Assembly (NCBI GenBank): GCA_002309655.1
Contig: DBXM01000016.1
Span: forward strand, 72,771-136,770
DNA from: Mageeibacillus sp. UBA1212
Lineage (GTDB): Bacteria > Bacillota > Clostridia > UBA1212
Length of the DNA: 64,000 nt
Reading direction: 5' to 3'
How positions within the stretch are numbered: the stretch's first letter is position 1; every line of letters starts with the position of its first letter. Shown here piece after piece: positions 5,012 through 60,283 of this stretch. The notes under the pieces are model-generated. The model was given only the letters and a program-made list of their open reading frames with translations, made no database searches and was not told the DNA's origin. The position numbers were made by a program, and so were the translations under genes.

Positions 5012-6745
5012 TCACCCTTCTCTTGCCGCCCTCTCGCGCATTCGCGCAATCAGCTCAATCGAATGCGCCCTTGTCACGCCCGTTGCGTCGCCGTCGCCGT
5101 CCAGCAGCCTTCCGACCTCGCGGATCTTGCCCTCCTCATCAAGCGTCTCGGCGTCGGTCCTGACAAAGTTGTCGCCGAACGTCTTGCTGATGAAAATGTT
5201 GTTGTCGCTGATGGCCGCAATCTGGGCCAGGTGCGATACGCAGATGACCTGGTGCGAACGGCTCACGCGCATGAATTTTCCCGCAACCGCGGCCGCTGCG
5301 GCGCCGCTGATTCCCGTGTCAATCTCGTCGAATATGAGGACCGGAATTCTGTCCGCCTCCGCGAGGCAGGACTTCATCGCCAGCATAATTCTCGAAAGCT
5401 CGCCTCCAGAAGCGATCCTCGCCAGCGGTCTCGGCAGTTCGCCGGGGTTGGTGCTGATCATAAACTCCGCGGTGTCGAGTCCGTTCTTGCCGAACTGCGG
5501 CAGTTCCCTGTCGTCGAAATCCAGGCGCGTCTCGAAAACAACCTTCCCCATCTCCATGTCTGCAAGGGCGTTCATTATTCCCGTTTTAAGCTTTTCAGCC
5601 GCCTTTTCTCGAAGCGCGTGCATCCTGAGAGCCGCTTTTTTCATCAGCTTCCTAAGTTCGCTCTGTCTGGCGTTCAGCCTCGCCGCGGTCTCCTCGGAGC
5701 CTTTCAGCTTCTCAAGCCTCTCCTCAGCGTCTTCCGCGAAGCGCTTGATTTCGTCGATCGAGTCGCCGTATTTCCGCTTCAAAGCATAAATCAGGTCGAG
5801 CCGCTCCGCCACGTATCCGGCCTCTTTTTCGTCGACGTTGACGCTGTCGAAGGCGTTCCTGATCATGTCGAGGGCGTCGTCCAGAATATACGAGCACTCC
5901 CTGAGCTTTTCGAGGCATTCCCCGAAGCTCTCCGAATACTTGCCGAGCCGCGTTATGTCCGTGATCGCGTTGTCGAGCATTCCCCTCGCGCCGCCGGCGT
6001 CACCGTACGAATCGCCTCCGCCCGCAATTGCTTCAACCGCTGAAGCCAGCCCTTTCGAAATATTTTCCGCGTTGTCGATTAGTTTCTGCCGCTCCTCAAG
6101 CTGCGTGTCCTCGCCGTCTTTTAAAGAGGCGGTAAAAATCTCGTCGGTCTGAAACATCAGCAAATCGATAAGCTGCGCGCGTTTCTGCGGGTCGCCGCTG
6201 ATCTCCTCAAGTTCGGATTCGTTGCGCCTGTACTCGGAAAGCAGCGCGGAATACACGTCCGAAGCCTCTGCAAGCTCCGGTCCCGCGAACGCGTCAAGAA
6301 GCCCGATATGCGTCGACGGCGAAAGCAGCGAGTGGTTGTCGTGCTGCCCGTGAACGTCCACAAGAAGCTCCCCGAGACGCCTGAGCGTGGAAAGCGTTAC
6401 GATTCTGTCGTTGATCCTGCATGTGCCGCGGCCGCTCAGGTTGCAGCTTCTGAAAAGAATAACGGTGCCGTCCGGTTCGGGTTCGATTCCGATTTCGACA
6501 AGCGTCGGGTCGATGCGCTCCGACTCCTCCTCGGAAAGCGTGAAAACGCCGGTAATCTGGGCCTCCTCGGCGCCCTGCCTGATGCTCTCGCGCGACATTC
6601 GCTCCCCCAAAAGGAAGCAGATCGAGTCGATGATTATCGACTTTCCCGCGCCTGTCTCGCCGGTAAGGCAGTTCATACCGGGGCCGAATCCGATGGTCAG
6701 GAAGTCGATTATAGCTGTGTTTCTGATGGTCAGTGAATCGAGCAT
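5012..6745 (-). CDS. recN: DNA repair protein RecN
   Basis: A Walker A motif GETGAGKSIIIDSICFLLG is present, with a long coiled-coil middle and a C-terminal SMC signature region. The ATG at 6745 has a GGAGG ribosome-binding site. The track ORF carries a 17-aa extension that I rejected. Confidence 0.9.
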   Translation of the reverse strand: MLDSLTIRNTAIIDFLTIGFGPGMNCLTGETGAGKSIIIDSICFLLGERMSRESIRQGAEEAQITGVFTLSEEESERIDPTLVEIGIEPEPDGTVILFRSCNLSGRGTCRINDRIVTLSTLRRLGELLVDVHGQHDNHSLLSPSTHIGLLDAFAGPELAEASDVYSALLSEYRRNESELEEISGDPQKRAQLIDLLMFQTDEIFTASLKDGEDTQLEERQKLIDNAENISKGLASAVEAIAGGGDSYGDAGGARGMLDNAITDITRLGKYSESFGECLEKLRECSYILDDALDMIRNAFDSVNVDEKEAGYVAERLDLIYALKRKYGDSIDEIKRFAEDAEERLEKLKGSEETAARLNARQSELRKLMKKAALRMHALREKAAEKLKTGIMNALADMEMGKVVFETRLDFDDRELPQFGKNGLDTAEFMISTNPGELPRPLARIASGGELSRIMLAMKSCLAEADRIPVLIFDEIDTGISGAAAAAVAGKFMRVSRSHQVICVSHLAQIAAISDNNIFISKTFGDNFVRTDAETLDEEGKIREVGRLLDGDGDATGVTRAHSIELIARMRERAAREG

Positions 6746-6746
6746 G

Positions 6747-7580
6747 TCAGCCTCCGTTTCCGGACTCGCCGAACAGTTTTTCGGCGACCGCCGCATAGAA
6801 GTTCGGTGGATCGATCCTGACGATTTTTACCTTTTTATCGGCACATTCGCACACTACGCGCTCGTCCTCGCGGAGCTTCGCCGAGGTCTGGCCGTCGACG
6901 ATAAGCCGCAGTTTTTTTGCCTTCCCGGCCGGAGTAACCTTCACCGTGCTGTCGTGGTGGGCGACGATCGTTCTGCTTCCCATTTTGTGCGAGCAGATTG
7001 GCGTGACGAGAATGACGTCGTTACCGGGCGCGATGATCGGGCCGCCGGCCGAGAGTGAATAAGCGGTTGAACCGGTCTGAGTCGCAACAATAATACCGTC
7101 GCACGGATAAGTCCCCACGAAAGCGCCGTTGATTTCAACGGAAAGATGGCACACGTTGGCGTCGACCTCCCTGGTCAGCACCGCGTCGTTGACCGCGTAC
7201 CCGAAAAATCTCTTCTGCCCCTCGGAAACCACGTAGGTCGCCAGCACGCTGCGCTCCTCGATCGAATACCTGCCGTCGCAGATGCGCGAAACCGTCTCCT
7301 CAATCGAATCCGGTTCAAACTCGGTCAAGAATCCTATCGTGCCCAGGTTGAAGCCGAACACGGGAATTTCCCTCTCCACGGCGCTCGAAGCCACCCTCAG
7401 GAACGTACCGTCTCCCCCGATCGAAATAATAAGGTCGCAGTCGGCGAAAACGTCGCCGCTCATGCTGTGCTTCCCCGCGGTAACGACTTCGACGCCGTGA
7501 GCCTCGAAAAGCTCCGACAGTCTGAAATAATACGCCGCGGCGTCCTGTTTCTTTTCGTTTACACAGATTCCCACTCTCAT
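6747..7580 (-). CDS. nadK: NAD(+) kinase
   Basis: The GGDGT motif (ISIGGDGTFL), NEFG-like GFNLGTIGFL and a DGIIVATQTGSTAYSLSAGGPI motif are present. The start MRVGICVN at 7580 has a GGAGGACGG ribosome-binding site. The stop lies 1 nt from the recN start, so the two are translationally coupled. Confidence 0.85.
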   Translation of the reverse strand: MRVGICVNEKKQDAAAYYFRLSELFEAHGVEVVTAGKHSMSGDVFADCDLIISIGGDGTFLRVASSAVEREIPVFGFNLGTIGFLTEFEPDSIEETVSRICDGRYSIEERSVLATYVVSEGQKRFFGYAVNDAVLTREVDANVCHLSVEINGAFVGTYPCDGIIVATQTGSTAYSLSAGGPIIAPGNDVILVTPICSHKMGSRTIVAHHDSTVKVTPAGKAKKLRLIVDGQTSAKLREDERVVCECADKKVKIVRIDPPNFYAAVAEKLFGESGNGG

Positions 7581-7647
7581 AAGAACCGTCCTCCGTCCGC
7601 ACGTATCCGCACATGTAAAAATGCGGTTCATGCTTTTTCACAGTTCT

Positions 7648-25330: not shown

Positions 25331-25413
25331 GCCGATGTGGCGGAATTGGCAGACGCACCGCACTCAAAATGCGGCGAGAAATCGTACCGGTTCGAGTCCG
25401 GTCATCGGCACCA
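25331..25413 (+). tRNA. tRNA-Leu (anticodon CAA), class II with long variable arm, CCA encoded
   Basis: The sequence GCCGATGTGGCGGAATTGGCAGACGCACCGCACTCAAAATGCGGCGAGAAATCGTACCGGTTCGAGTCCGGTCATCGGCACCA folds as a cloverleaf. The 7-bp acceptor stem is GCCGATG/CATCGGC. The anticodon loop is CUCAAAA, giving anticodon CAA. A long variable arm and the T-loop GGTTCGAGTCC are present. Confidence 0.9.
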
Positions 25414-25454: not shown

Positions 25455-25579
25455 ATGTATAGATTTGTATGTGCCGGTTTGTATGTGCCGGCGGTTCATT
25501 CCCGCTTCATTTTTCGCTGTTCGTAACTTGAAACGCTTCGTTATTCGGAGTATAATCTTGCTTAGCGGAGGTGCAAAAT

Positions 25580-33786: not shown

Positions 33787-34800
33787 TTACCCGCTCTCAT
33801 ACTGGTAGGAATGCTGGTAGAACGACACTTCAACAGTAATTCCGCACCTTACCATACACTCGTTCGATATTCTAAGCAGTTTTTCCGCATTCTCAAGCCC
33901 GCTCAGATTGTCCGGCAGAATCAGAATCATCTTTTTTGATTTGATTTCCTTCTTTGTAACCGTCACGCCGTCGCACTCGCCCTCCTCAAAAGCCGCCAGC
34001 TTTTCGGCCATGTTCAGCACTTTTCTCAAAAGCTCTCTCTCCGAAGCGTACGAAGGCGCAGTTGCGTCGACAGAGTAAAGCATCGTGGCAACCCCGGTTT
34101 TCCTGTCGATAATGTCAATCACGGGAAAGAACGATGGGAGATTGGAACTGTATATTTCTTCAAGAACCCGCCCGCGTTTCAGCGAAGGCAGCTCCCACAC
34201 ATTTATCTCGTCAACCGTATACCTTGAGCATCCTCCGTAAAGCCACCCGTTCCCTTTCAGGCAGAAAAACGCCCTTACCCCCGCGCCTTCTCCGAATATT
34301 ACAGGGAAAACGTAATCGCTTCTCGTATACACCTTGACCGTGAATTCATTTCCGTTTTCGTAGAACTCGCTTCCCGCCAGCGATACGATCTCCGCCTTGA
34401 ACGGAAGGCCCGATTTCACTCTTTCTTTTTCGAGCTCTTCGGCAAGAACCCCCTGCATCACCGCAGTCCATGCGCCAGATTCGATCTTCGAAAACGCCAC
34501 CGACGCCAGCTCATTCGCGATCTTCCCCGACATTCCGTCCTCGGGAAGGCAGTCCATCGCCTTTCTCCTTACGTTTTCTTTCAGCGACTCAAGTCCACTC
34601 TTATAGAAGATGCACGAATCGCAAGCAAGCTTCTCGGAGGCAGTCAGCACCGCGTTCGCCGTCATATAATAGAGGCAGAAATACTGTATCATCCCGATAA
34701 GAAAGAATACCGTAAAGGAGAAAAATACCGAAGTTATCGCCCCCTCGATGCTTATAGAACCGCCGGAACTGCGCACGCCCTCTTCTTTAATATGACGCAT
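33787..34800 (-). CDS. TadE/TadG-like pseudopilin-family protein with class-III (prepilin-like) N-terminus and large C-terminal domain
   Basis: The ATG at 34800 has a GGAAGGTGAG ribosome-binding site. The N-terminus MRHIKEEGVRSSGG-SISIEGAITSVFFSFTVFFLIGMI matches the TadE signature G-S-x-x-x-E-x-A followed by a hydrophobic helix, with Glu at +5 after Gly. It is 337 aa. The start overlaps the upstream gene's stop by 14 nt. Confidence 0.5.
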   Translation of the reverse strand: MRHIKEEGVRSSGGSISIEGAITSVFFSFTVFFLIGMIQYFCLYYMTANAVLTASEKLACDSCIFYKSGLESLKENVRRKAMDCLPEDGMSGKIANELASVAFSKIESGAWTAVMQGVLAEELEKERVKSGLPFKAEIVSLAGSEFYENGNEFTVKVYTRSDYVFPVIFGEGAGVRAFFCLKGNGWLYGGCSRYTVDEINVWELPSLKRGRVLEEIYSSNLPSFFPVIDIIDRKTGVATMLYSVDATAPSYASERELLRKVLNMAEKLAAFEEGECDGVTVTKKEIKSKKMILILPDNLSGLENAEKLLRISNECMVRCGITVEVSFYQHSYQYESG

Positions 34801-36868
34801 CCGCACTCACCTTCCAATCGTACCTTCTTCTGAACAGTCTGTCCGTCATCAAAAACGTTTTGACCTTCATAGTGCATTCGGCGGAAACGCTCGCGGCAAA
34901 ATCTTCGATTTCCTTGTACATGCCGTTGTCCTTCCAGTAATTGAGTTCAATTATGTCCTGGATGCGCCCGAGTTTTGTCTCCAAGGGAACCGTCAGCAGC
35001 AGGATCCTCAGATATTCACTGTATGACATTGCAGAGAGGTTTGTGCTTTCACCCCTTCCGGAACCGGTTGAATCACCGCTCCCTGAGTTCCCGCCGTTTT
35101 CGCCGATAGCGCTTCCGGCCTCACCGAGAACACCCTCTATCGACACCTTCCAGTCCTTCTCTCTTTTAATCAGAGGAACCTTTTTGCCTCCGTGCAGATC
35201 CGCGATGTCCATTCCTGTCTCCAGAAAAGCCCATGACAGCACTATCGCTGCGGTTACCGGAGCCTCCCCGCATGAAATCTCTTCGACTGCTTCCGATTTT
35301 TCCTCGCTCGACATAATGTGAAGCACGTTCAATCCAAGCCTCAGCGAAAACAGTTCCGCGTATGCCGCGAGCATATTCTCGTCATCCGTTCTGCCACCGA
35401 AAAGCACATACTCTATCTCGCCGTTTAAAAGGTGCGCATTCGAGTCCTTGACCTCCGAGGTATTCTTCATGTAGGTCGCAATATAGTCGTCGATATAGTA
35501 CCACTCCATGCAGCCTGTGAGCGCGTCCTCCAGCCTTTTCGCAAAGCCCGCGTACCCTTCCAGCGAAGTCGAGAATTTCAGTTTCTCGGCCACCCATGTA
35601 ATGCTGCGCCAGATCTTTTCAAAAGACCAGTCTTCACCTTCTTTCGAAGGCAGCTCTTCATAAATGTCGGGATCGATCTCGGAGTTAGCCGCGGGAAGAA
35701 AATGAAGGAAATCCGACGCCGCGTCGACCGCAGTTTGATAAAGGCTCTCCTGAGAAGATGACGCAGCGGTCTGTTCGTAGTTGTTCTGCTCCACTTTGAG
35801 ATAGTTTCTGTATGCGTTTCCCGCGGCATCTATAACCGCGTATATTTCCCCCAGAACCACCGGATTACCGGCCGCGATCGTCTGCTCAAGCTCGTATTCC
35901 GCCGCCGTGGCCTTCTGAAGACTGTAGTAATTCTTCCCGAGCTTATCCGCGACGATAGAATAGTCACCGTTTTCGCCGAGTTTTTTTCGCCTTTCCTTTA
36001 TCTTTTTGATGATTTCATCCGCGGACTCCTCTCCGTCATCCGAGGTCCTCGCCTCGCTCTCCGCTTTGCTCAGAAGCTTCCCCGCCTCCCTCGTTAGTTC
36101 GATAATATCCTCCGTAATGTCAAGCGCCTGTCTGTTGTTCTCCGAAAAAATCACCGCCCCCATCAGAAAAGTCTTGACCGCGTTCTTCAGCAATTCCGCA
36201 GCCCTTTCGTCATAGATCTCCAGTTCGGCAGGAACCGCCTGCGTCACCTTTTTTATCTCGGCATCCAGATTTTTCGCAAATATCGTGTCGAAAAAGCCGT
36301 TGACGCCGCCGGCGACCGCACCGTAAACGCCGTTAAGCGCAAGCTCAAGGTCCTTCCTCTTTCCTTCAATCTCCTCGATTATGTTGTCCGCCCGGTTTAT
36401 ATAGGTATAAGCGCTGACTTTCCGCCCCGCTCCGACCATTGCCTGCACCTTCTCCACAATCGAAACCGCCGCGTTCCCCCATGATTTGTATTTCATAAGG
36501 TCCCTGATCTCTTCACGAAGCACGTCCTTGTCGGCAAGCGAATCCCCGTAGCTGATTTCAAATCCGGTCACCTCCCTTTCGGGAATGAAAAACATATCGT
36601 AATCGCCGCGCGCGAAAAGTCCCGTCATTCCCTGATTTCTGCTCTCCCGTGTTATCTCGTAGAACCGGTTCGAAAGCTCGTCTTCTTTGGTGATATCGAC
36701 GAAGTACAGACCGTAATTCGCTTCGAGCCGCCTGTCGAACTGGGCAAGCACCGACGCGCACGCAAAATCCGCGACTCTCTCTGAAATCCTTCTCTGAAAC
36801 GCGACGGCGAGAATGTCCTGAAACGCGAAATTCAGCAGAATCACAGAAGCGGTTATTATGCACATCAT
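34787..36868 (-). CDS. Large membrane-anchored protein of unknown function, middle gene of the pseudopilin-like operon. The start is ambiguous: ATG at 36868, or TTG at 36931.
   Basis: It is 694-714 aa with an N-terminal hydrophobic helix (MMCIITASVILLNFAF). The body is a long alpha-helical, E/K-rich domain with a Gly/Ser-rich linker (GENGGNSGSGDSTGSGRGES). No catalytic motif was recognised. It sits between two TadE-like genes and is translationally coupled to both. Confidence 0.4.
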   Translation of the reverse strand: MMCIITASVILLNFAFQDILAVAFQRRISERVADFACASVLAQFDRRLEANYGLYFVDITKEDELSNRFYEITRESRNQGMTGLFARGDYDMFFIPEREVTGFEISYGDSLADKDVLREEIRDLMKYKSWGNAAVSIVEKVQAMVGAGRKVSAYTYINRADNIIEEIEGKRKDLELALNGVYGAVAGGVNGFFDTIFAKNLDAEIKKVTQAVPAELEIYDERAAELLKNAVKTFLMGAVIFSENNRQALDITEDIIELTREAGKLLSKAESEARTSDDGEESADEIIKKIKERRKKLGENGDYSIVADKLGKNYYSLQKATAAEYELEQTIAAGNPVVLGEIYAVIDAAGNAYRNYLKVEQNNYEQTAASSSQESLYQTAVDAASDFLHFLPAANSEIDPDIYEELPSKEGEDWSFEKIWRSITWVAEKLKFSTSLEGYAGFAKRLEDALTGCMEWYYIDDYIATYMKNTSEVKDSNAHLLNGEIEYVLFGGRTDDENMLAAYAELFSLRLGLNVLHIMSSEEKSEAVEEISCGEAPVTAAIVLSWAFLETGMDIADLHGGKKVPLIKREKDWKVSIEGVLGEAGSAIGENGGNSGSGDSTGSGRGESTNLSAMSYSEYLRILLLTVPLETKLGRIQDIIELNYWKDNGMYKEIEDFAASVSAECTMKVKTFLMTDRLFRRRYDWKVSADASY

Positions 36869-36884
36869 CGGCGTCACCGATCCG

Positions 36885-37148
36885 CTATTCCTCCCCGAAA
36901 AGCATTTCAAAAATATCACCCCCTGCGTCAAAAACCGAGCTTACGGCTCTGTGAACGTCCGCGTATTCCGGATTACTCTCTACTTCCTTTTCTGAATACC
37001 TGACCGCGCCGGCAAAAACGTTAACGTAGGCGCCGATCAATATCGCAACAAAAATCAGTACCAGCGGAACAACTACGGCCGCCTCCGTAGTCAGACTCCC
37101 TTTGTCGCCCTTAAAGAACCTTTTCCCCTGGATTTTACCGTTTCGCAT
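36885..37148 (-). CDS. TadE-like (Flp-pilus assembly TadE/TadG N-terminal domain) small pseudopilin
   Basis: The ATG at 37148 has a GGGGGGTGGTGAGG ribosome-binding site. The 87-aa sequence MRNGKIQGKRFFKGDKG-SLTTEAAVVVPLVLIFVAILIGAYV matches the TadE N-terminal signature RGSAAVEFALVLP. The track ORF's 5' extension to 37265 lacks a ribosome-binding site and overlaps the repeat array. Confidence 0.6.
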   Translation of the reverse strand: MRNGKIQGKRFFKGDKGSLTTEAAVVVPLVLIFVAILIGAYVNVFAGAVRYSEKEVESNPEYADVHRAVSSVFDAGGDIFEMLFGEE

Positions 37149-37215
37149 CCTCACCACCCCCCTTTGGTGCAATACGATTATACCCGATCCTTTGCGCGAA
37201 TGAAAGTCTGCACTG

Positions 37216-37302
37216 TTCGTCACATTTCGACAGAATTCGTCGTATTTCGACTTATTTCGTCGCAATACGTCACTTTTCGTCAGTTTTCGACAAATTTCGA
37301 CG
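37216..37302 (+). repeat. Nine tandem heptamers in exact 10-bp register, each 0-2 mismatches from TTCGACA (reverse complement of the Spo0A 0A box TGTCGAA); candidate response-regulator binding array
   Basis: The heptamers start at 37216, 37226, 37236, 37246, 37256, 37266, 37276, 37286 and 37296. In order they read TTCGTCA, TTCGACA, TTCGTCG, TTCGACT, TTCGTCG, TACGTCA, TTCGTCA, TTCGACA, TTCGACG. Two copies match the 0A box exactly and most have one mismatch. The array lies 68-154 bp upstream of the TadE-like start at 37148. Confidence 0.6.
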
Positions 37303-37455
37303 TAAAATCCGAGAATTTCTCAAAATGCGGCATGTTAAAAGAACGAATAAACTCCAAGCTCGCCCCTCAATAATAGCTCGCCAAAAAACACTTTTTTAAA
37401 CAAAAAAGACACCCCAAAGGGTGCCCTCTTCGCGTTGTATTCATTATTCAAACGG

Positions 37456-38196
37456 TCAAGCGGCTCTATTAACCAGCCTGCTGATCAGAAACAGAATCCC
37501 GTAAACCAGAGGCTGATGCAGCATGTAAATCAGCAGCGAATGCCTCCCCACGAACGAGAAAAACCGGATGACCGGATTCCTGTCGTTCACTTTTTTAAAA
37601 AGAGTAACCTTGTTTTTGTAAAGCGTTTTTCCGCCCGCGACGCCGATCATAAAGTAACCGAGATGCGGGAAAATCGGGAAATAATCGCCGGCCGCAAATC
37701 CTTTAGCAGTCAGCCCCAGCGGGAACAGATACGGGTTCGATACCTTGAACGTCGTAAACCAAATTCCAAGCGCCACAAAGCAAACGCCGAGCCCCAGAAT
37801 CACGGGCCACGGCAGCTTCCTGTATAATCCGTACGTGAGCATGCAGAAGGCCAGAAGGTGGAGCACGCCGAACCAGATGTGAAGACTCCTGTCAAATAGC
37901 AGACACGTGACCAGGGTAATTATCATAGCGCAGACCGCCACGACAACGCCCCTGATTATATGATGATGTCCGAGAGTCACGCAGACGCCGGAAAGCACCA
38001 CGAAAAGAATCCCGCCGTACGTTTGGATCCAGTCAAACCACGCCGGCGTCTCGAAATAGAACCCGAAAAGCTCTCTGATGTCGAAAATCGCGTGAACAAT
38101 CACGACCCCGATTATGCATAGCCCCCTAAACGCGTCAAGTTCCCAGATCCGCTTTGTATTCTTTTTCTTAAAAAGTCCGGTAAAAAACTCTTTCAT
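37456..38196 (-). CDS. Polytopic membrane protein, DUF1624/acyltransferase-3-like (HGSNAT-type N-terminal motif)
   Basis: It is 246 aa with 7-8 predicted transmembrane helices. The motif WELDAFRGLCIIGVVIVH matches the conserved LDxxRG motif of the DUF1624 / heparan-alpha-glucosaminide N-acetyltransferase-like family. Confidence 0.45.
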   Translation of the reverse strand: MKEFFTGLFKKKNTKRIWELDAFRGLCIIGVVIVHAIFDIRELFGFYFETPAWFDWIQTYGGILFVVLSGVCVTLGHHHIIRGVVVAVCAMIITLVTCLLFDRSLHIWFGVLHLLAFCMLTYGLYRKLPWPVILGLGVCFVALGIWFTTFKVSNPYLFPLGLTAKGFAAGDYFPIFPHLGYFMIGVAGGKTLYKNKVTLFKKVNDRNPVIRFFSFVGRHSLLIYMLHQPLVYGILFLISRLVNRAA

Positions 38197-38208
38197 AAAA
38201 ACACAAAC

Positions 38209-39114
38209 CTACGGCGTCACAGTCTCGATTTTCGCCCTGTTCTCGAAAACGCTGCCGCTTAGAATAATGTCTCCGTACCCGGGTGCGCGAATGACGCCCT
38301 TTGCCGGATTCTTGACGGAATCAATGACCGTTGTAACGTCAGCGTCGACTTCCGAATACTCGAAGCTCAGGTCGCAAGCGTACATCTCGCAGTTTATCAG
38401 CATCAGTTTTTTGCAGTAGCAAAGAGGCTGCGTACCGCTGATTTTGCAATTGATCAGCGTCAGGCCTTCGGAATACCACCCGAGGTACTCCCCGTTAAGA
38501 ACCGAATCCTTCACCGTAACATTCTTTGAGTGCCAGAACGCGTCCTTCGTGTTCAGCTCGCAGTTCGAAATCCCGGCGTTTTTGACATACTGGAACGAGT
38601 ACTTCCCCGCCAGCACGGAATCAGTAAGCGTCAGATTTTCGGTCTTCAGGAACGGATACTCCGAAGTGATCCGCGACTCCTTCACGGTCACCCTTTTGTT
38701 AAGCCAGCCGAACTCTGAGGATACTATCGTTGAGCCTGCAACGTCGACGTCCCGGCATTCACGGACTGCCTTGACCCCGTTCAACACAGAATTAACAATT
38801 TTGATGTTCTTCGCGTACCAGAGCGCCGCACGCGCCGTCTCCGTCATTTCCGAGTTCTCAATAACTGTATTCTCGGTATGCCAGAGCGGGTATCTAAGTC
38901 TGAAAAGACATCCTTCCACTTTGATTCCGCGGGTCTCCTTAAGAGCGGATTCCCCGTCTTCCTCACCCTCAAACCGGCAGCCGGAAACAACGGTATTCGA
39001 AATCCCGTAAAGCGCCCTTTCCTCAGAGAAAACACGTCCTGACACGGTTTCGCAATCCGCTTCAACGTTCCTATTATTTTTGTCCGGCAAATGCGAGCCG
39101 TAAATATCTTTCAT
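38209..39114 (-). CDS. Right-handed parallel beta-helix repeat protein (DUF3737-like)
   Basis: The ATG at 39114 has an AAGGT ribosome-binding site. It is 301 aa with repeating 22-aa beta-helix rungs (NxxIxNSVLNG..., VTVKDSVLNGEY, LTLINCKISG, LMLINCEMYA). Confidence 0.45.
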   Translation of the reverse strand: MKDIYGSHLPDKNNRNVEADCETVSGRVFSEERALYGISNTVVSGCRFEGEEDGESALKETRGIKVEGCLFRLRYPLWHTENTVIENSEMTETARAALWYAKNIKIVNSVLNGVKAVRECRDVDVAGSTIVSSEFGWLNKRVTVKESRITSEYPFLKTENLTLTDSVLAGKYSFQYVKNAGISNCELNTKDAFWHSKNVTVKDSVLNGEYLGWYSEGLTLINCKISGTQPLCYCKKLMLINCEMYACDLSFEYSEVDADVTTVIDSVKNPAKGVIRAPGYGDIILSGSVFENRAKIETVTP

Positions 39115-39341
39115 TGTAAAACCTTCGATCAAGACGGATAGTCAAAAGCGCAGTTCCGCCTCCCGCAAACATATACGGAAGAGCGCCAGCCGCCCGGGGA
39201 GACTAACGCCCGCAAAGAGCGCACTTCTCCCCAATCACATTAAAACGGTCTGCGCTTAATCATTCCCCATAATCGGTCCGTCGACAAGCAGTAAAAACGC
39301 ACCGTCGACGCAAACCGGTTACAATACAACGAATTAAAAAA

Positions 39342-40718
39342 TTATTTAACGCCGTTCTTGTCAGTCGAACCGAACTCGGCACCGCTGAGCGACTCTCCGA
39401 GGAACTTGCCGATTTCAAACGACTTAAGCTTCTCGTTCTGCATCTTCTCAGCGCCCGGACCGTATGCCCAAACGTTTACCTTGTTCGACGTGTGAGCAAT
39501 CGTCGTAAACCTGTAAGGAAGCGTATCCCAGTCGACGTCGGGGTTCTTGCTCTGCGCAATCTTCTCGGCCTCGTACAGGCAGTGAAGCTTCGCGTTCGTG
39601 AGGCACCACTCTTCCTGCGCGATATACTGGTTGGTCTTCTCGTTCTTCTTTATATAGGCGTCAGCCTCTTCCTTGGGAAGAATGCCGCCTGTCTCGTGGT
39701 CGGCGGTAACGACGATCAGCGTATCCTTGTTCTCGTACGCGTAGCGGACACCGATTTCAACCGCCTGGTCGAACGAGGTCATATGTCTCGTGAGCTCCAT
39801 CATATCGCAGTTGTGAGCGACTTCGTCGAGCGCACCGCCTTCAACAATCAGGAAGAATCCTTTATCGTTCTTGGAGAGCATCTTGATGGCCTGTTCGGTC
39901 ATCTCGGGAAGCGAAGGATGCGTATCTGCGTCTTCGAACCAGTAGTCGTCGGTCATGGTGGCAATGAGCCTGCCCTCGCCGTTAAACGAAAGCACGTCCT
40001 CCCACTTCGTGACCCAGGTGACATTGTTGTCCGTGAGCTTCTGCGCATAGCTCGGATCGTTTTCCATCAGAAGGTCGTACATCGCCTTGCCGCCGCCCAT
40101 AATGAAGTCGGCAACGCTCGTATCTATCTGAAGCGCCGCAATATTGGATTCGTCGTTTCTGTTCTTGGCGTGAACCGAGAACGTGGCCGGAGTTGCGTCA
40201 ACGATGCTCTCGGTAGTGATGATGCCAGCAGACTTTCCGAGCGACTTCGCAAGTTCTGTCATATTCATGACTTCCTCGCCCTTGTTGTTAAGGCCGATCT
40301 GCTTTCTCTTGCCCTTGTAACCGCAGGCGAGAGCCGTGCCTCCGGAAGCGCTGTCAGGCTCACCCTCTGTGCAGGTCGTGTTAACGATCCCCGTGTAAGG
40401 AAGGTACTCTATAACGAGTTTTCCGTCGTAGCGGCCGCCGGTTATCGCGTCGGTAGCCGGAACGTGGTTCTGTCCCATACCGTCTCCGATATAAAGAATG
40501 ACGTTCTTGCAGTCCTTGAACTCAGTCGAAGCCAGCGCGGCAAGAATCTCTTCCATCGGCGTGACAGGCTCTTCGGTCGGCTCTTCAGTGGGAGCTTCTG
40601 TGGCCTCAGGCGCCGCCGTGACGTCAGGCGTAGGTGTAGTCGTGCAGGCAGCCGCGAAAATCATAATTCCCGCCAGCATTGCCGCAAAAATCACTTTGAG
40701 TAACTTCTTAAAATTCAT
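39342..40718 (-). CDS. Alkaline phosphatase (PhoA family) lipoprotein
   Basis: The ATG at 40718 has a GGAGGA ribosome-binding site. The lipobox is LAGIMIFAAAC. A Pro/Thr/Glu-rich linker follows. The PhoA motifs DGMG, the active-site DSASGGTA and a VTADHETGG motif are present. Confidence 0.85.
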   Translation of the reverse strand: MNFKKLLKVIFAAMLAGIMIFAAACTTTPTPDVTAAPEATEAPTEEPTEEPVTPMEEILAALASTEFKDCKNVILYIGDGMGQNHVPATDAITGGRYDGKLVIEYLPYTGIVNTTCTEGEPDSASGGTALACGYKGKRKQIGLNNKGEEVMNMTELAKSLGKSAGIITTESIVDATPATFSVHAKNRNDESNIAALQIDTSVADFIMGGGKAMYDLLMENDPSYAQKLTDNNVTWVTKWEDVLSFNGEGRLIATMTDDYWFEDADTHPSLPEMTEQAIKMLSKNDKGFFLIVEGGALDEVAHNCDMMELTRHMTSFDQAVEIGVRYAYENKDTLIVVTADHETGGILPKEEADAYIKKNEKTNQYIAQEEWCLTNAKLHCLYEAEKIAQSKNPDVDWDTLPYRFTTIAHTSNKVNVWAYGPGAEKMQNEKLKSFEIGKFLGESLSGAEFGSTDKNGVK

Positions 40719-40838
40719 CTTAATCCTCCGGATTATCTTATTCACGCAAAGTCCGCAGCTTCGCGCTTCAAAGATTATTATACTCCGCCTTCCGCCGGAA
40801 ATTCACTGACGTCAGGCGGCTTGAAATCAACAAATCTG

Positions 40839-42464
40839 TTAGCGCGTAATCTGCTGCTCGACGAGGCTCTTTCCGCAGTAAATCTCCCTGAGTCTGGGCT
40901 TTTCGATCTTTCCGGTGGGATTTCTCGGCACGCTTGCGAAAATGATCTTCTTCGGTCTCTTGTACCTGGGCATACCCTCGCAGAAGAACATGACCTCGTC
41001 CTCCGTCAGCGTCATTCCCGGTTTGACCTCAATAATGGCCGCCGCAATCTCGCCGAGCCTGTTGTCGGGGAGTCCGATAACCGCCACGTCTTTGATCTTG
41101 TCGTTGCAGCGCAGATAGTCCTCGATCTGCACCGGGTAGAGGTTCTCGCCGCCGCTGATAATGACGTCCTTTTTCCTGTCGACCAGGAATATGAACCCGT
41201 CCTCGTCAACTTTTGCCATGTCTCCGGTATACAGCCAGCCGTCCTTTAAAACCTCATCCGTCGCCTCGGGGTTCTTGTAGTAGCACTTCATGACGCCGGG
41301 ACCCCTTACAAGAAGCTCTCCGACCTCGCCCGTTTTAACGTCGTCCCCGTTCGTATCTACAACGCGCGTCTGCCAGAGATAACCGGCTTTTCCGATTGCT
41401 CCAACCTTGTGAATATTCTCGACGCCGAGGTGCACGCATCCCGGTCCGATAGACTCGCTGAGTCCGTAGTTGGTGTCGTACTGATGGTTCGGGAAAACCT
41501 TTTTCCAGTTTCTAATAAGACTCGGCGGAACCGGCTGCGCACCGACGTGCATAAGCCTCCAGCAGCTGAGATCGTAGTCTTCAAGCTTTATATCTCCGCG
41601 CTCAAGCGAGTCAAGAATGTCCTGCACCCACGGCACCAGAAGCCACACAATCGTCGCTCTCTCGTCGGAAACGGTCTGAAGAATCCACTCCGGCCGCACG
41701 CCTTTAAGCAGAACGGCTTTACCGCCTGTCATAAGACTCCCGAACCAGTGCATTTTCGCGCCCGTGTGATACAGCGGCGGGATGCACAGGAACACGTCGT
41801 TCTTCGTCTGTCCATGATGGTTCTGCTCCGTTCTGCAAGAGCTCAAAAGCGCCGCGTGCGAATGAAGAATCGCTTTCGGGAATCCGGTCGTTCCGGACGA
41901 GAAGTAAATGGCGGCATTGTCGTCTTCGTTAAGATCAACGGCCGGCGCGACAGACGAGCAGTACGTTATCATCCTGCTGAAACTGTCCGCAAACTCCGGC
42001 ACCTCGCTTCCCACAAAGAAGAAATGCTTGATCGCCTGAAGCTTGTCCAGAACCTCCGTCACGCGCCCTGTAAATTCGGGTCCGAAAACCATATAAGTTG
42101 AATCGGAAAGGTTGACGCAGTAGCTGATCTCATCCTGCGTATAGCGGTAATTCATCGGAACCGCAAGCGCGCCCGTTTTAAGAATACCGAAATAAATGGG
42201 CAACCAATCGATGCAGTTCATCAAAAGAATCGCGACCTTGTCGCCCTTCTTTATGCCCCTTGTAAGAAGCAGATTCGCGAAGCGGTTTGCCTTAACGTCA
42301 AATTCTCTCCAGGTAATGCTTCTCCTGTACTTTTCTCCCGGACTCGACTCGATAAGACTGTACTCGCGCCAGCTCTTCGGCTGCGCCTGCGGGTTGATCT
42401 CAACCAGCGCCACATCGTCGGGAAACACTTTCGCATTCCTCTCAAGAAAATCCATTATAACCAT
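40839..42464 (-). CDS. AMP-binding acyl-CoA synthetase / fatty-acid-CoA ligase (ANL superfamily)
   Basis: The AMP-binding motif YFSSGTTGFPKA, an A8 TGD motif YTGDMAKVDEDGFIFLVDRKKDVIISGGENLYP and a C-terminal GKIEK motif are present. The start MVIMDFLERN at 42464 is favoured; the track's 48-aa N-terminal extension is unlikely. Confidence 0.8.
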   Translation of the reverse strand: MVIMDFLERNAKVFPDDVALVEINPQAQPKSWREYSLIESSPGEKYRRSITWREFDVKANRFANLLLTRGIKKGDKVAILLMNCIDWLPIYFGILKTGALAVPMNYRYTQDEISYCVNLSDSTYMVFGPEFTGRVTEVLDKLQAIKHFFFVGSEVPEFADSFSRMITYCSSVAPAVDLNEDDNAAIYFSSGTTGFPKAILHSHAALLSSCRTEQNHHGQTKNDVFLCIPPLYHTGAKMHWFGSLMTGGKAVLLKGVRPEWILQTVSDERATIVWLLVPWVQDILDSLERGDIKLEDYDLSCWRLMHVGAQPVPPSLIRNWKKVFPNHQYDTNYGLSESIGPGCVHLGVENIHKVGAIGKAGYLWQTRVVDTNGDDVKTGEVGELLVRGPGVMKCYYKNPEATDEVLKDGWLYTGDMAKVDEDGFIFLVDRKKDVIISGGENLYPVQIEDYLRCNDKIKDVAVIGLPDNRLGEIAAAIIEVKPGMTLTEDEVMFFCEGMPRYKRPKKIIFASVPRNPTGKIEKPRLREIYCGKSLVEQQITR

Positions 42465-42658
42465 AAAAACCTCTTTCCGAAAACCGAAAAAGATAAAAGT
42501 CGGCGGTTTTCGCGTAATTAACCGATAGATAGAATTGTATTTTAAGAAGCCCTCCGTGTCAAGTATTTTGTCGAAAAACAGCCGCTTTGTGCCGCCCTGC
42601 GACGTCAAAAAACAACCGTAAAGACCTTCCCGGCAAGCCTCCGTCCCTCATTATTCAA

Positions 42659-56936: not shown

Positions 56937-58046
56937 TCAGCCCTCGTTTGTATCATCTCCGGCAGAAGACGCCGGTTCGTTTTCAGGTTCGTTTTCAGGT
57001 TCGTTTTTTTGTTCGATTACGGTTTTTTTCTCTGAACTTCCCTCTTTGAGAAGCCTTCTGACTCGCCTGACCGCCCACAGCCCGCCCAGAACGACGACCG
57101 TAGCGATAAGCACGTAGATGTATACGTTTTTGACGACCGTGTAGGCTTTCAGCTTGCGGGTCTCCTTTTCGGTCAGTTCGACTTTGTAGTGAATGTCGTT
57201 GCCGGCCGCAGCCATGTCCTCGGTGTATTTAAGCTCCGCGGCAGTGAACTGCGACTCGTACTGCATCATCTTTTCGCCGGCGTCGTTGAAATAGTAGTAG
57301 ACGATCTGGAGGTAGCGCGGAAGAAGGTTCTTGTCGGCTCCCGCATAAGTTATAGAAGTCTCCGTGCCGTCTCCGGTCGCGTAAAATCTCACAATCGCGG
57401 AAATGTTCTTCCTGTACTCGCTGTAGTCGACTTTCGGGCCGGTCACGTGCAGAACGATATCCGTCTTGTTCACGAATCCGTCTGCCTCCATCGCCTTCAG
57501 ATTTTCGTTGACGGAGCCCGCGTTGTAGCGGCCCCGGGGCACCATCAGGTCTACGTTGACCGCAACAGGGGTAAACCGAACCTCCTCGGCGGCGGCGAAT
57601 TCAGTGAAGTCTTCAAGCATCTTTTCGTTGAACCGTTCGTTGATTTCCTTGTCGCACGCGTATTCCGCGTAGATTTCGTCATAGGTCACGCGGTAGTTGT
57701 ACGCCTCAAGCGTGAACGTGTCGCCCGCCTTCAGAGTGCCGTGCGAGCCGCCGGAAATGTCAGTCACCTTGTAAGTGTAACGGTAGCCCTTCACGCTCAT
57801 CTCGACGCCGAGATAGTCGCGTTTTTCGTTGAACGGAGCGGCTGAAACGGGCTTGTAACCCAGATCGGAGTAGTTTTTGCGAAGGTAGGAACTCACAAAA
57901 GGCTTGTTGAGAACAACTCCGACCGGCGTCACCGCGCCTTCAAGAAGAATGCACGCCAAAGCCGCGACCACGACAGCGTAAATGACGATAATCACCGCAA
58001 TCTGTACCTTATTCCCTGTTGAAACCTTTGAACCGGTGCCCTTCAT
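56937..58046 (-). CDS. Bitopic or double-anchored membrane protein of unknown function with acidic NEPENEPENEP C-terminal tail
   Basis: It is 369 aa. There is an N-terminal transmembrane helix (VQIAVIIVIYAVVVAALACILL) and a second helix near the C-terminus (IYVLIATVVVLGGLWAV), followed by EQKNEPENEPENEPASSAGDDTNEG. An AAGGTGG ribosome-binding site is present. It is cotranscribed upstream of ilvB (28-nt gap). Confidence 0.4.
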   Translation of the reverse strand: MKGTGSKVSTGNKVQIAVIIVIYAVVVAALACILLEGAVTPVGVVLNKPFVSSYLRKNYSDLGYKPVSAAPFNEKRDYLGVEMSVKGYRYTYKVTDISGGSHGTLKAGDTFTLEAYNYRVTYDEIYAEYACDKEINERFNEKMLEDFTEFAAAEEVRFTPVAVNVDLMVPRGRYNAGSVNENLKAMEADGFVNKTDIVLHVTGPKVDYSEYRKNISAIVRFYATGDGTETSITYAGADKNLLPRYLQIVYYYFNDAGEKMMQYESQFTAAELKYTEDMAAAGNDIHYKVELTEKETRKLKAYTVVKNVYIYVLIATVVVLGGLWAVRRVRRLLKEGSSEKKTVIEQKNEPENEPENEPASSAGDDTNEG

Positions 58047-58178: not shown

Positions 58179-60128
58179 TCAGCTGTTGCAGATGACCGTG
58201 AAGTCCGGCACCTTCAGGCTGGCGCCGCCGACAAGACCGCCGTCGATGTCCTCCATCGCGAACAGGCCCGCTGCGTTCTTGGCGTTGCAGCTGCCGCCGT
58301 ACTGGATTGTGATCACGGAGGATACGTTCGGGCCGTAGAGCTTCTTGACGGTCTCGCGGATCGACTTGCAGACTTCCTGAGCCTGGTCGTCGGTAGCGGT
58401 AAGGCCGGTTCCGATTGCCCAGATCGGCTCGTAGGCGATGATGATGCCTGCGGCCTGGTAGTCGCGGACGCCGTTCAGAGCATACTCGACCTGGTAGGCA
58501 ACGAGCTCGTTGGTGACTCCGGCAAGTCTCTGATCCTTCGACTCGCCGACGCAGACGATCGGAGTGATGCCGAACTTGAGGGCCTGCTTGACCTTCAGGT
58601 TGACGGACTCGTCTGTCTCGTTGTAGTACTGACGTCTCTCGGAGTGGCCGATGATGACGTACTCGACGCCGAGGTCCTTGAGCATTTCAGCCGAAATTTC
58701 GCCGGTGTAGGCACCCTTGTCGTGGTAGTCCATATTCTGAGCCGCGATCTTGATGTGGGTGCCCTTTGCGGCTTCGAGCGCCGCGGGAATCGCAACGTAC
58801 GGAACCGCGCAGATAACGTCGTTCTTGCAGCCCTTTGTAGCCTCGGCGAGTTCCTTAATGAAGGCCGCCGCCTGGCTCGGAGTCTTGTTCATCTTCCAGT
58901 TGCCTGCCGCAACTATCTTTCTGTCCTTGTTTTCGAGGCAGGAGATTCCGGGAAGGTCGCGTCCTTCGAGGAATTCGAGGGAAGCGCCGCCGCCCGTGGA
59001 GATGTGGGTGATGGAATCCGCGAAGCCGAGCTGTTCGACAGCAGCCGCACTGTCTCCGCCGCCTACGATTGTTGTGGCCTCAGCCGCGGCAAGCGCCTGC
59101 GCGACAGCGATAGTTCCCTTTGCGAGGATCGGGTTCTCGAAAACGCCCATAGGTCCGTTCCATACGACCGTCTTCGCGTTTCTGATCTCTTCCGCGAAGA
59201 GCTCGCGGGTTGCGGGTCCGATGTCGCAGCCCATTCTGTCGGCGGGCATTTCGGTCGACTTGCAGACGAGCGTCTCAACCGGCGCGTCGATCGGGTTCGG
59301 GAACTCGGGAATCGTGACAGCGTCTACCGGGAGAAGCAGCTTCTTGCCGAGGGCTTCGGCTTTTTCGAGCATCTCTCTGCAGAAGTCGATTTTGGTCGGG
59401 TCGACCAGCGAGGTGCCGATGGAGTAGCCCTGCGCGTTAAGGAAGGTGTAAGCCATGCCGCCGCCGATGATGAGCGTGTCGCACTTTTCGAGAAGGCTGG
59501 AGATGACCGAGAGCTTGTCGGCAACCTTCGCGCCGCCGAGAATGGCCACGAACGGGTGCTCCGGGTTGTTGACCGCGTTTCCGAGGAAGGCGATTTCCTT
59601 CTCGATAAGGAAGCCTGAAACCGCGGGCAGATAGTCGGCGATGCCGGCCGTCGTTGCGTGAGCGCGGTGGGCTGTTCCGAACGCGTCGTTAACGTAGAGC
59701 TCGGCCATGGAAGCGAGTTCCTTCGCGAATTCGGGGTTGTTTTTCTCCTCTTCCTTGTGGAATCTCGCGTTTTCGAGCATCATGATCTCACCGGGTTTGA
59801 GGGCCGCGGCTTTCGCCTTCGCGTCAGGTCCGATAACGTCGGTAGCCTGGATAACCTCTCTGCCGAGGAGCTCTCCGAGACGCTTCGAAGCGGGTGCCAT
59901 CGAGTACTTCATGTTGAACTCGCCCTTCGGTCTGCCCAGGTGGGAGACGAGAATGACGGCCGCGTTCTTCTCGAGAAGGTACTTGATCGTGGGCACGGCG
60001 CCGACGATTCTCTTGTCGTCGGAAATGTTTCCTTCGCTGTCAAACGGGACGTTGAAGTCGACTCTGACGATCACTTTTTTGCCGGCGCAGTCGACGTCGG
60101 CAATTGTCTTTTTGCAATAATAGGCCAT
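58179..60128 (-). CDS. pgk/tpiA: Bifunctional phosphoglycerate kinase / triosephosphate isomerase fusion protein
   Basis: The ATG at 60128 has an AAAGGAGAG ribosome-binding site. The N-terminal 400 aa are PGK ([21 protein letters not shown]). The C-terminal 250 aa are TIM ([26 protein letters not shown]). The reading frame is continuous, with no internal stop. Confidence 0.85.
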
Positions 60129-60283
60129 AATAAGGACTCTCCTTTGCATGTATTTTATACGTTTTTATATTAGCACACCGCTTCCGTGTTTTCAAGAATC
60201 AAACCTTCGGCGGCGGCACGTATTCAGAAATTATCACTGTGAACGTTTGCGTAAAAAGCATTTACTCAGCGTTCACTTTGCGT

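What the first reader, a model, noticed from the sequence alone, without database searches (positions are those of the whole stretch)
37216..37302. Nine phased TTCGACA-like heptamers (reverse complement of Spo0A 0A box TGTCGAA) at exact 10-bp spacing upstream of the pseudopilin operon
This was read directly from the sequence. Nine heptamers at 37216, 37226, ... 37296 read TTCGTCA, TTCGACA, TTCGTCG, TTCGACT, TTCGTCG, TACGTCA, TTCGTCA, TTCGACA and TTCGACG. Two are perfect 0A boxes and most have one mismatch, all on the same DNA face. Spo0A C-domains bind head-to-tail on direct-repeat 0A boxes separated by 3 bp, a 10-bp period. OmpR/PhoB-type regulators also bind direct repeats near helical periodicity. 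An array of nine is unusually dense. It sits 68-154 bp upstream of the TadE-like start codon. The six-frame track translates this repeat as a spurious 69-aa ORF (37164..37373).
Basis: partly seen in the sequence, partly recalled or inferred. Interest (0 to 1): 0.72.

Follow-up and report, generated by a model that had tools for sequence, protein, structure and literature searches.

The report
Phased Spo0A-box array before pilus operon
A 90-bp stretch of nine evenly spaced copies of the binding motif of Spo0A, the sporulation master regulator, sits just upstream of a promoter for pilus-accessory genes in a rumen Ruminococcus-like bacterium. It is probably an unusually large docking platform for Spo0A, but binding has not been shown.

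Summary
Nine units lie at an exact 10-bp period (37216-37305). On the gene strand (-) they read nTGWCGAAAw, which fits the Spo0A 0A box TGNCGAA. Eight in-phase core hits were seen; no shuffle gave more than 3.

The array lies between the upstream gene's intrinsic terminator and a promoter with a perfect TATAAT and no -35. A conserved degenerate tenth box (TGCAGAC) sits where the -35 would be. The operon encodes a TadE-like protein, a DUF5702 protein and a third TadE-type protein.

A sister rumen species (MAG RUG13779, 'Ruminococcus sp.') has the array in the same place and phase. It carries 9 or 11 reshuffled units in two strains that are 97.4% identical. Across 29 units, G2, C4 and G5, the bases Spo0A contacts, are almost invariant.

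More distant relatives with the same gene order have neither array nor promoter, so the element is lineage-specific.

A blind metagenome scan for the phased motif also found a three-box cluster directly upstream of a genuine spo0A gene.

Best reading (about 0.6): a cooperative Spo0A~P activation platform, larger than any described. Not shown: spo0A in this genome, binding, or the transcription start. Rivals are another regulator or a largely neutral minisatellite.

The parts
37216..37305 (-). Nine head-to-tail 10-bp units, nTGWCGAAAw on the - strand. The 7-mer boxes are at 37302-37296 down to 37222-37216, about -132 to -46 from the inferred start site.
   Evidence: position weights
37203..37213 (-). 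Conserved GTGCAGACTTT. It contains a degenerate tenth box, TGCAGAC (37212-37206, about -42 to -36), in phase with the array and lying where a -35 element would be.
   Evidence: Invariant in the window, L004, L003 and L005 although the spacer around it diverged
37177..37182 (-). Perfect -10 hexamer TATAAT. The hexamer 17 nt upstream is TTTCAT (2 of 6 matches to TTGACA), so there is no usable -35.
   Evidence: TATAATCG invariant in four sequences; same 20-nt distance from GTGCAGACTTT in all. The start site near 37170 is inferred, not mapped.
37151..37164 (-). Ribosome-binding region (AGGGGGGTGGTGAGG) ahead of the ATG at 37148
37400..37433 (-). Intrinsic terminator hairpin plus U-run of the upstream acyltransferase gene (HGSNAT_cat, 37456-38196). 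It marks the upstream limit of the regulatory region.
   Evidence: -22.4 kcal/mol, z = -4.6; the equivalent hairpin directly abuts the array in L003 and L005
36885..37148 (-). First gene: 87-aa TadE-like protein with the prepilin-type N-terminus G-SLTT-E followed by a hydrophobic helix
   Evidence: TadE E = 0.53 here; orthologs in L126 and L127 hit TadE at E = 0.0026 and 0.0016
34787..36865 (-). Second gene: 692-aa DUF5702 protein
33787..34800 (-). Third gene: 337-aa protein with a TadE-type N-terminus (G-SISI-E) and a C-terminal CDI_toxin_EC869-like (restriction-endonuclease-like) domain. NCBI names an ortholog 'pilus assembly protein'.

Best explanation
The array is a homotypic cluster of Spo0A binding sites (0A boxes). 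It serves as the activator platform of a sigma-A-type promoter that has a perfect -10 and no -35.

Proposed mechanism (inferred): phosphorylated Spo0A dimers bind head-to-tail to the near-consensus distal boxes. They then spread cooperatively along one DNA face through up to ten in-phase positions. This loads the two weak, conserved promoter-proximal boxes, TGACGAAC at about -52/-46 and TGCAGAC at about -42/-36. From there Spo0A contacts sigma-A region 4 and substitutes for the missing -35, as it does at the B. subtilis spoIIG promoter.

The result would be Spo0A~P-dependent expression of a TadE-like/DUF5702/TadE-type operon encoding accessory proteins of a Tad-type pilus. This would happen when the cell leaves exponential growth.

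Shown here: the anatomy, the fit to the motif, conservation of the contact bases and of the promoter geometry, and the lineage-specific origin. Inferred: the identity of the binding protein, the sign of regulation, and the transcription start.
For: (1) Motif. The 29 units from three lineages give n-T(22)-G(28)-W(T11/A18)-C(28)-G(29)-A(27)-A(26)-A(24)-W. This fits TGNCGAA with A/T flanks. Spo0A makes base-specific contacts to G2, C4 and G5, and C. difficile Spo0A has the same specificity as the B. subtilis protein (PMC3485338).

(2) Spacing. Known Spo0A sites include pairs of boxes separated by 3 bp and four consecutive boxes at the phi29 origins (PMC2731898). The phi29 left end reads ttctcct/atcgaca/tccgtcg/ctcggca in 10-bp phase.

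(3) Promoter. The array ends next to TATAAT with no -35. The proximal GTGCAGACTTT-20 nt-TATAAT geometry is invariant while the spacer sequence diverged.

(4) Selection. Two strains that are 97.4% identical in the flanks have 9 and 11 reshuffled units that still keep the core, the phase and the proximal end. In the window's species the array is identical in 3 assemblies and has one substitution, at a variable position, in a 98.4%-identical fourth.

(5) Positive control. A blind metagenome scan for three phased GWCGAAA units returned L069. There the three boxes lie about 110-140 bp upstream of a gene with Response_reg plus Spo0A_C domains (E = 1.4e-40), and its best PDB match is the Spo0A-DNA complex 1LQ1. 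spo0A is a known autoregulated Spo0A target.

(6) Taxon. The closest named genome is the rumen MAG RUG13779, 'Ruminococcus sp.'. R. albus 7 and R. bromii both encode Spo0A (PMC3533761; PMC5814915).

(7) Other Firmicute-like metagenome promoters carry 3-5 phased boxes in the same orientation and on roughly the same helical face relative to a -10 element. These were picked by eye, so they are weak evidence.
Against: No spo0A or other sporulation gene lies in the 64-kb window. recN is not followed by spoIVB-spo0A as it is in many Firmicutes (own knowledge of that synteny). Presence of Spo0A in this genome is therefore only inferred from the genus.

The array is absent upstream of the same operon in relatives at 44-54% protein identity, so it is not an ancestral part of the operon's control.

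Unit number and order change between closely related strains, as in a minisatellite.

A 10-bp satellite could resemble a 6-specified-base motif by chance at roughly 0.5% per motif considered. Most metagenome hits to the pattern were plain satellites.

The orientation of boxes at known Spo0A-activated promoters could not be checked. The start site is not mapped.
Confidence: 0.6

Rival explanations
1. The array binds a different regulator that recognises direct repeats. Candidates are an OmpR/PhoB- or NarL-type response regulator, a ribbon-helix-helix protein that coats repeat arrays, or a Spo0A paralog. That regulator would control this operon specifically in this lineage.
For: The array and promoter are lineage-specific. 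No second site was seen in the window. This fits a dedicated local regulator as well as it fits a global one. Position 3 prefers A (18 of 29 units), whereas the B. subtilis high-affinity box has T.
Against: No regulator gene lies in or next to the operon. The invariant positions match the Spo0A contact bases exactly. An unrelated instance of the phased motif sits upstream of a spo0A gene. OmpR/PhoB-type sites usually repeat at about 11 bp (own knowledge).
Confidence: 0.13
2. The array is essentially a 10-bp minisatellite that arose by slippage next to a newly formed promoter. Any effect would be structural: phased A-tracts bending the DNA, or an UP-element-like or spacer function. Copy-number change would tune expression without a sequence-specific binding protein.
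For: Copy number and unit order differ between strains that are 97.4% identical. Distant relatives lack the array. Each unit carries an A3-4 tract in helical phase. 10-mer satellites with similar units are common in metagenomes.
Against: The units are too diverged for efficient slippage (68% matches). Variation is concentrated at positions 0, 1, 3 and 9. The three contact positions carry only 2 of 57 deviations, which neutral decay does not predict. The array is stable across four assemblies of the window's species. The proximal degenerate box is conserved.
Confidence: 0.2
3. The array is a phase-variation switch for a surface structure. Frequent gain or loss of 10-bp units would turn the pilus-accessory operon on and off within a population.
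For: The operon encodes pilus-related proteins, and unit number differs between strains.
Against: Changes in whole 10-bp units keep both the helical phase and the distance of the proximal boxes to the -10, so they would not switch the promoter off. The imperfect units disfavour high-frequency slippage. No variation was seen among four assemblies of the window's species.
Confidence: 0.05

Closest known systems
Spo0A-activated sigma-A promoters of B. subtilis (spoIIG; also spoIIE)
   Same: 0A boxes lie upstream of and overlapping the -35 region of a promoter that sigma-A alone cannot use well. Stronger distal boxes help load weak promoter-proximal boxes. Activation works by contact with sigma. 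These points come from paper titles listed (Baldus 1994; Schyns 1997) and from my own knowledge.
   Different: Those promoters have about 2-4 boxes in two separated sites. Here there are 9-11 contiguous boxes at exactly 10.0 bp plus a degenerate tenth. The target is a Tad-pilus accessory operon, not a sporulation gene. The host is an uncultured rumen Ruminococcus.
Consecutive 0A boxes at the replication origins and the A2c promoter of phage phi29/Nf
   Same: Head-to-tail boxes separated by 3 bp, and up to four consecutive imperfect boxes, footprinted by Spo0A (PMC2731898). The 10-bp phase is visible in the phi29 left end.
   Different: At most four boxes. The function there is repression of transcription and replication, not promoter activation.
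spo0A autoregulatory boxes
   Same: A three-box 10-bp cluster of the same GWCGAAA units lies upstream of a metagenomic spo0A gene (L069). C. difficile Spo0A binds its own upstream region with high affinity.
   Different: Three boxes, in the opposite orientation relative to the downstream spo0A gene.
Bacterial VNTR / minisatellite promoter repeats
   Same: Tandem units with no spacer; copy number differs between strains (9 vs 11).
   Different: Units are heterogeneous. Substitutions avoid the protein-contact positions. The proximal end and the phase are fixed relative to the -10.

Membership tests
Spo0A binding-site cluster (0A boxes) | Sequence fits TGNCGAA, with G2, C4 and G5 (the contacted bases) conserved | tested here: met
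   28/29, 28/29 and 29/29 units respectively; the contact bases are taken from PMC3485338
Spo0A binding-site cluster (0A boxes) | Tandem head-to-tail boxes separated by 3 bp (10-bp period) | tested here: met
   Exact 10-bp spacing in the window, L003 and L005; precedent in phi29/Nf
Spo0A binding-site cluster (0A boxes) | The host genome encodes Spo0A | not testable with these tools
   No Spo0A homolog in the window or in the orthologous loci held. Only genus-level literature is available.
Spo0A binding-site cluster (0A boxes) | Bound by Spo0A~P, with Spo0A-dependent expression | not testable with these tools
   Needs EMSA, footprinting, ChIP or a reporter assay
Spo0A binding-site cluster (0A boxes) | Placed so as to act on a promoter | tested here: met
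   The array ends 33 nt (degenerate box: 23 nt) upstream of a conserved TATAAT that has no -35. The start site is inferred.
Spo0A binding-site cluster (0A boxes) | Conserved upstream of orthologous genes | tested here: inconclusive
   Present with the same phase and position in the sister species. Absent in relatives at 44-54% protein identity.
Slippage-type VNTR / minisatellite | Near-identical tandem units | tested here: not met
   68% matches; 11 distinct 7-mer cores among 29 units
Slippage-type VNTR / minisatellite | Copy-number polymorphism between strains | tested here: met
   9 vs 11 units in L003 and L005, which are 97.4% identical. No variation in four assemblies of the window's species.
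CtsR operator | Direct heptads (A/G)GTCAAA-NAN-(A/G)GTCAAA (consensus from my own knowledge) | tested here: not met
   The units have an invariant CG, and 18 of 29 read GACGAAA
Plasmid/phage iterons or partition (centromere) repeat arrays | Adjacent replication or partition genes, or a mobile-element context | tested here: not met
   Chromosomal, syntenic context with metabolic and pilus genes. No flanking terminal repeats.

The most novel reading that the evidence does not exclude
The array is a recently evolved platform of about 100 bp on which 10-12 Spo0A~P protomers polymerise head-to-tail along one DNA face, effectively a response-regulator filament. It would give a very sensitive, switch-like link between Spo0A and Tad-pilus accessory genes in rumen ruminococci. 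Gain and loss of whole 10-bp units between strains would act as an evolvable setter of the activation threshold. If the host does not sporulate, this would be an example of what a retained Spo0A does in 'asporogenous' Clostridia.
Probability: 0.25. Interest if true: 0.7.

Novelty: new variant of a known kind. Interest (0 to 1): 0.5.

Why it matters
Spo0A regulons are known in detail only for Bacillus and a few clostridia. What Spo0A controls in the abundant gut and rumen Oscillospiraceae/Ruminococcus is largely unknown, and several of these keep spo0A without known sporulation.

A promoter with 9-11 contiguous in-phase 0A boxes has more than twice the largest run mentioned in the papers read here (four, at the phi29 origins). 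It would give:
- a clean natural substrate for studying cooperative, possibly filament-like, binding of a response regulator;
- a candidate direct link between the entry-to-stationary-phase regulator and a Tad-type pilus;
- a small case study of how a new promoter and a site cluster arise and turn over within a genus.

If the array turns out to be a neutral satellite, the lesson is cautionary: short-motif resemblance in repeats can mislead.

Tried and rejected
- **Coding repeat:** rejected. A 10-bp period and the 9 vs 11 unit difference would shift the frame.
- **Structured RNA or DNA:** the array has no significant fold (z = -0.72), lies downstream of a terminator, and gave no Rfam hit.
- **Mobile element or iterons:** no terminal repeats and no rep/par genes.
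- **CtsR, LexA (Cheo box), CRP-like, DnaA and PurR motifs:** compared by eye with consensus sequences from memory. None fits the invariant GNCGAAA core.
- **Alternative sigma factors:** sigma-H, E, F, G, K and 54 consensus elements were not found around the TATAAT. This was read by eye using consensus sequences from memory.
- **More distant orthologs through DUF5702:** the full-length search gave only 2 hits and a domain-only query gave none. The third protein gave the useful distant relatives.
- **Genome-collection scan:** returned a single locus, RUG13779.
- **Viral scan:** gave five short perfect repeats of no clear relevance.
- **tblastn with remembered AbrB, SigH, SpoIIAB, SigF and SpoVT sequences:** found no further canonical Spo0A targets next to the arrays.
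- **Structure model of the 337-aa protein:** too poor to use (pLDDT 61.5), so no fold search was run.
- **Papers on spoIIG box positions:** the two looked up by id (PMC205050, PMC179438) are not held, so the comparison of box orientation and position with spoIIG rests on memory.

Full report
**1. The observation**

The nine heptamers are in the sequence exactly as listed, at 37216, 37226 ... 37296. Tandem Repeats Finder and the repeat finder both report the 10-bp array. Eight hits to the core TTCGWC lie in one 10-bp phase. In 300 dinucleotide-preserving shuffles of the window the maximum was 3, reached once, and usually 2. No other such cluster exists in the 64 kb.

**2. Local anatomy**

All genes here are on the - strand, where the units read nTGWCGAAAw. 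Reading 5' to 3' on that strand:
- the end of an HGSNAT-type acyltransferase gene (37456-38196);
- its intrinsic terminator, hairpin 37433-37400 plus a U-run (-22.4 kcal/mol, z = -4.6);
- about 95 nt of unique sequence;
- the nine units (37305-37216);
- a conserved GTGCAGACTTT (37213-37203) that contains an in-phase degenerate box, TGCAGAC;
- 20 nt of spacer;
- a perfect TATAAT (37182-37177);
- a Shine-Dalgarno region and the ATG at 37148.

The hexamer 17 nt upstream of the -10 is TTTCAT, so there is no usable -35. If transcription starts near 37170 (inferred), the boxes occupy -132 to -46 and the degenerate box -42 to -36. The array itself has no significant secondary structure. There is no Rfam hit and no sign of a mobile element.

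**3. What the promoter drives**

The operon encodes three proteins:
- an 87-aa protein with a prepilin-type N-terminus (G-SLTT-E plus a hydrophobic helix);
- a 692-aa DUF5702 protein;
- a 337-aa protein with the same kind of N-terminus (G-SISI-E) and a C-terminal CDI_toxin_EC869-like domain.

The TadE match of the small protein is marginal here (E = 0.53). It is better in orthologs (E = 0.0016-0.0026).

In more distant relatives (L126, L127, L129) the same three genes lie downstream of a T2SSE-type ATPase, two membrane proteins and a DUF4320 protein. This is a Tad-like pilus locus, interrupted by the same AMP-binding, alkaline phosphatase and acyltransferase genes. NCBI names one ortholog of the third protein 'pilus assembly protein'.

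**4. Comparative evidence**

*Window species.* The intergenic region is identical in two other assemblies (L001, L002). A fourth assembly, 98.4% identical overall (L004), has the same nine units with one substitution at a variable position.

*Sister species.* Its DUF5702 protein is 82% identical. It includes the rumen MAG RUG13779, labelled 'uncultured Ruminococcus sp.'. This species has the array in the same place. The terminator hairpin lies directly upstream, and GTGCAGACTTT-20 nt-TATAAT lies downstream. Two strains that are 97.4% identical in the flanks carry 9 units (L003, identical to L022) and 11 units (L005), with the order of unit variants reshuffled.

*Pattern of conservation.* Pooling 29 units gives n-T22-G28-W(T11/A18)-C28-G29-A27-A26-A24-W. 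Variation is concentrated at positions 0, 1, 3 and 9. G2, C4 and G5 carry 2 of the 57 deviations.

*Distant relatives.* Relatives at 44-54% identity for the third protein keep the gene order. Their intergenic region is only 70-110 bp, with a terminator hairpin followed directly by the ribosome-binding site. They have no array and no TATAAT.

*Conclusion.* The array and its promoter are a lineage-specific innovation. The distal part turns over by gain, loss and shuffling of whole units. The core, the phase and the two promoter-proximal boxes are held fixed.

**5. Who binds it?**

The motif fits the Spo0A 0A box. The core is TGTCGAA (classically TGNCGAA) flanked by A/T. Spo0A contacts G2, C4 and G5, and mutation of any of these lowers binding about tenfold. 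C. difficile Spo0A shares this specificity (PMC3485338).

Known Spo0A sites include pairs of boxes separated by 3 bp and four consecutive boxes at the phi29 origins (PMC2731898). The phi29 left end shows four imperfect boxes in 10-bp phase. Which four the authors meant is my reading.

A blind scan of metagenome contigs for three phased GWCGAAA units returned mostly plain satellites. One hit, L069, is different. Its three boxes lie about 110-140 bp upstream of a gene with Response_reg plus Spo0A_C domains (E = 1.4e-40). The recognition region ERAIRHAIEVAW is identical to that of B. subtilis, and the best PDB match is the Spo0A-DNA complex 1LQ1. spo0A is a known direct Spo0A target. With about 120 hits and one spo0A gene per Firmicute genome, such a hit is unlikely by chance, roughly 0.04 or less by my rough estimate.

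A few other Firmicute-like contigs show 3-5 phased boxes in the same orientation and on about the same helical face relative to a -10 element. I chose these by eye, so they are weak evidence.

**6. What is missing**

No spo0A or other sporulation gene is in the window. The scans that could have tested the whole genome were already used. Spo0A in this organism is therefore inferred only from the genus: R. albus 7 and R. bromii encode it. Binding, the sign of regulation and the start site are untested.

The box geometry at spoIIG is from memory. The two papers I looked up for it are not held. The titles support only the general logic, namely weak boxes loaded after phosphorylation and contact with sigma.

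**7. Mechanism proposed**

Spo0A~P dimers nucleate on the near-consensus distal boxes. They spread cooperatively in 10-bp register to the weak proximal boxes. There Spo0A replaces the missing -35 by contacting sigma-A. With ten positions on one face, the platform should be very sensitive and steep in its response.

The main alternative is a minisatellite with at most a structural role. It is weakened by four observations:
- the units are heterogeneous;
- substitutions avoid the contact bases;
- the proximal box is conserved;
- the array is stable within the window's species.

It is kept alive by the strain-level changes in copy number, the recent origin of the array, and the non-negligible chance that a 10-bp satellite resembles some known motif. 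A different direct-repeat-binding regulator cannot be excluded.

**8. Verdict**

The Spo0A interpretation is partly supported (about 0.6). If it is right, this is a new variant of a known kind: a Spo0A-dependent promoter with an unprecedented number of contiguous in-phase boxes, controlling pilus-accessory genes in an uncultured rumen Ruminococcus lineage. Interest is moderate (0.5). Two simple tests would settle it: a search for Spo0A_C in the complete genome, and a gel shift or footprint.

Noticed in passing
L069:143-913 (-) and L069:1028-1054: A metagenome contig found only through the DNA pattern encodes a full Spo0A (Response_reg + Spo0A_C). Three phased GWCGAAA boxes lie about 110-140 bp upstream of its start codon, in the opposite orientation to the gene.
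   Followed up: yes
L014 (reverse-complement coordinates 381-900): A rumen metagenome contig has a complex repeat region: 40-bp repeats, two blocks (6 + 4) of heterogeneous GWCGAAA 10-bp units, and 3-4 copies of ATATCCAATTTTATGCAAAAT. These are followed by TTGACA-17-TATAGT and an AAA_14/DUF4143 ATPase gene. It may be a second locus using the same motif in a rumen Firmicute.
   Followed up: partly
window 33787-34800 (-): The third operon protein combines a TadE-type prepilin N-terminus with a C-terminal CDI_toxin_EC869-like (restriction-endonuclease-fold) domain, an odd pairing for a pilus protein. The AlphaFold model was too poor (pLDDT 61.5) to take further.
   Followed up: partly
L126, L127, L129 (1-7600) versus window 37456-42608: In relatives, a Tad-type ATPase/membrane-protein/DUF4320 gene set and the TadE-like/DUF5702 operon are separated by AMP-binding, alkaline phosphatase and acyltransferase genes. 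In the window's lineage the ATPase genes are no longer adjacent, and a DUF3737 gene has been added.
   Followed up: partly
window 5012-7631 (-): The recN and NAD kinase genes overlap, with no argR between them. recN is followed by convergent sugar-metabolism genes rather than the spoIVB-spo0A pair found there in many Firmicutes (that synteny is from my own knowledge).
   Followed up: no
window 58179-60149 (-): A fused phosphoglycerate kinase/triosephosphate isomerase gene (NCBIfam NF010569, 969 bits).
   Followed up: no
window 56974-57007, 1019-1082 and 25464-25491: Other short tandem repeats: a perfect 12-bp unit x2.8, a 12-bp unit x5.3 (78% matches), and a perfect 14-bp unit x2 about 50 nt downstream of tRNA-Leu(CAA) at 25331-25413. 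None was examined.
   Followed up: no
window, whole: The perfect heptamer TTCGACA/TGTCGAA occurs 24 times against 13.9 +/- 3.7 expected (0 of 100 shuffles reached 24). Most copies lie inside genes, so codon usage is the likely cause (my guess).
   Followed up: partly
L102:7944-7980, L110:484-520, L015:6006-6052, L039:1611-1637, L103:1683-1709: Firmicute-like metagenome contigs carry 3-5 phased TGTCGAAA/TGACGAAA boxes just upstream of -10-like hexamers, on about the same helical face as in the window. The downstream genes are a secreted protein, an unknown protein, a ParB-HTH protein and a small XRE-type regulator.
   Followed up: partly
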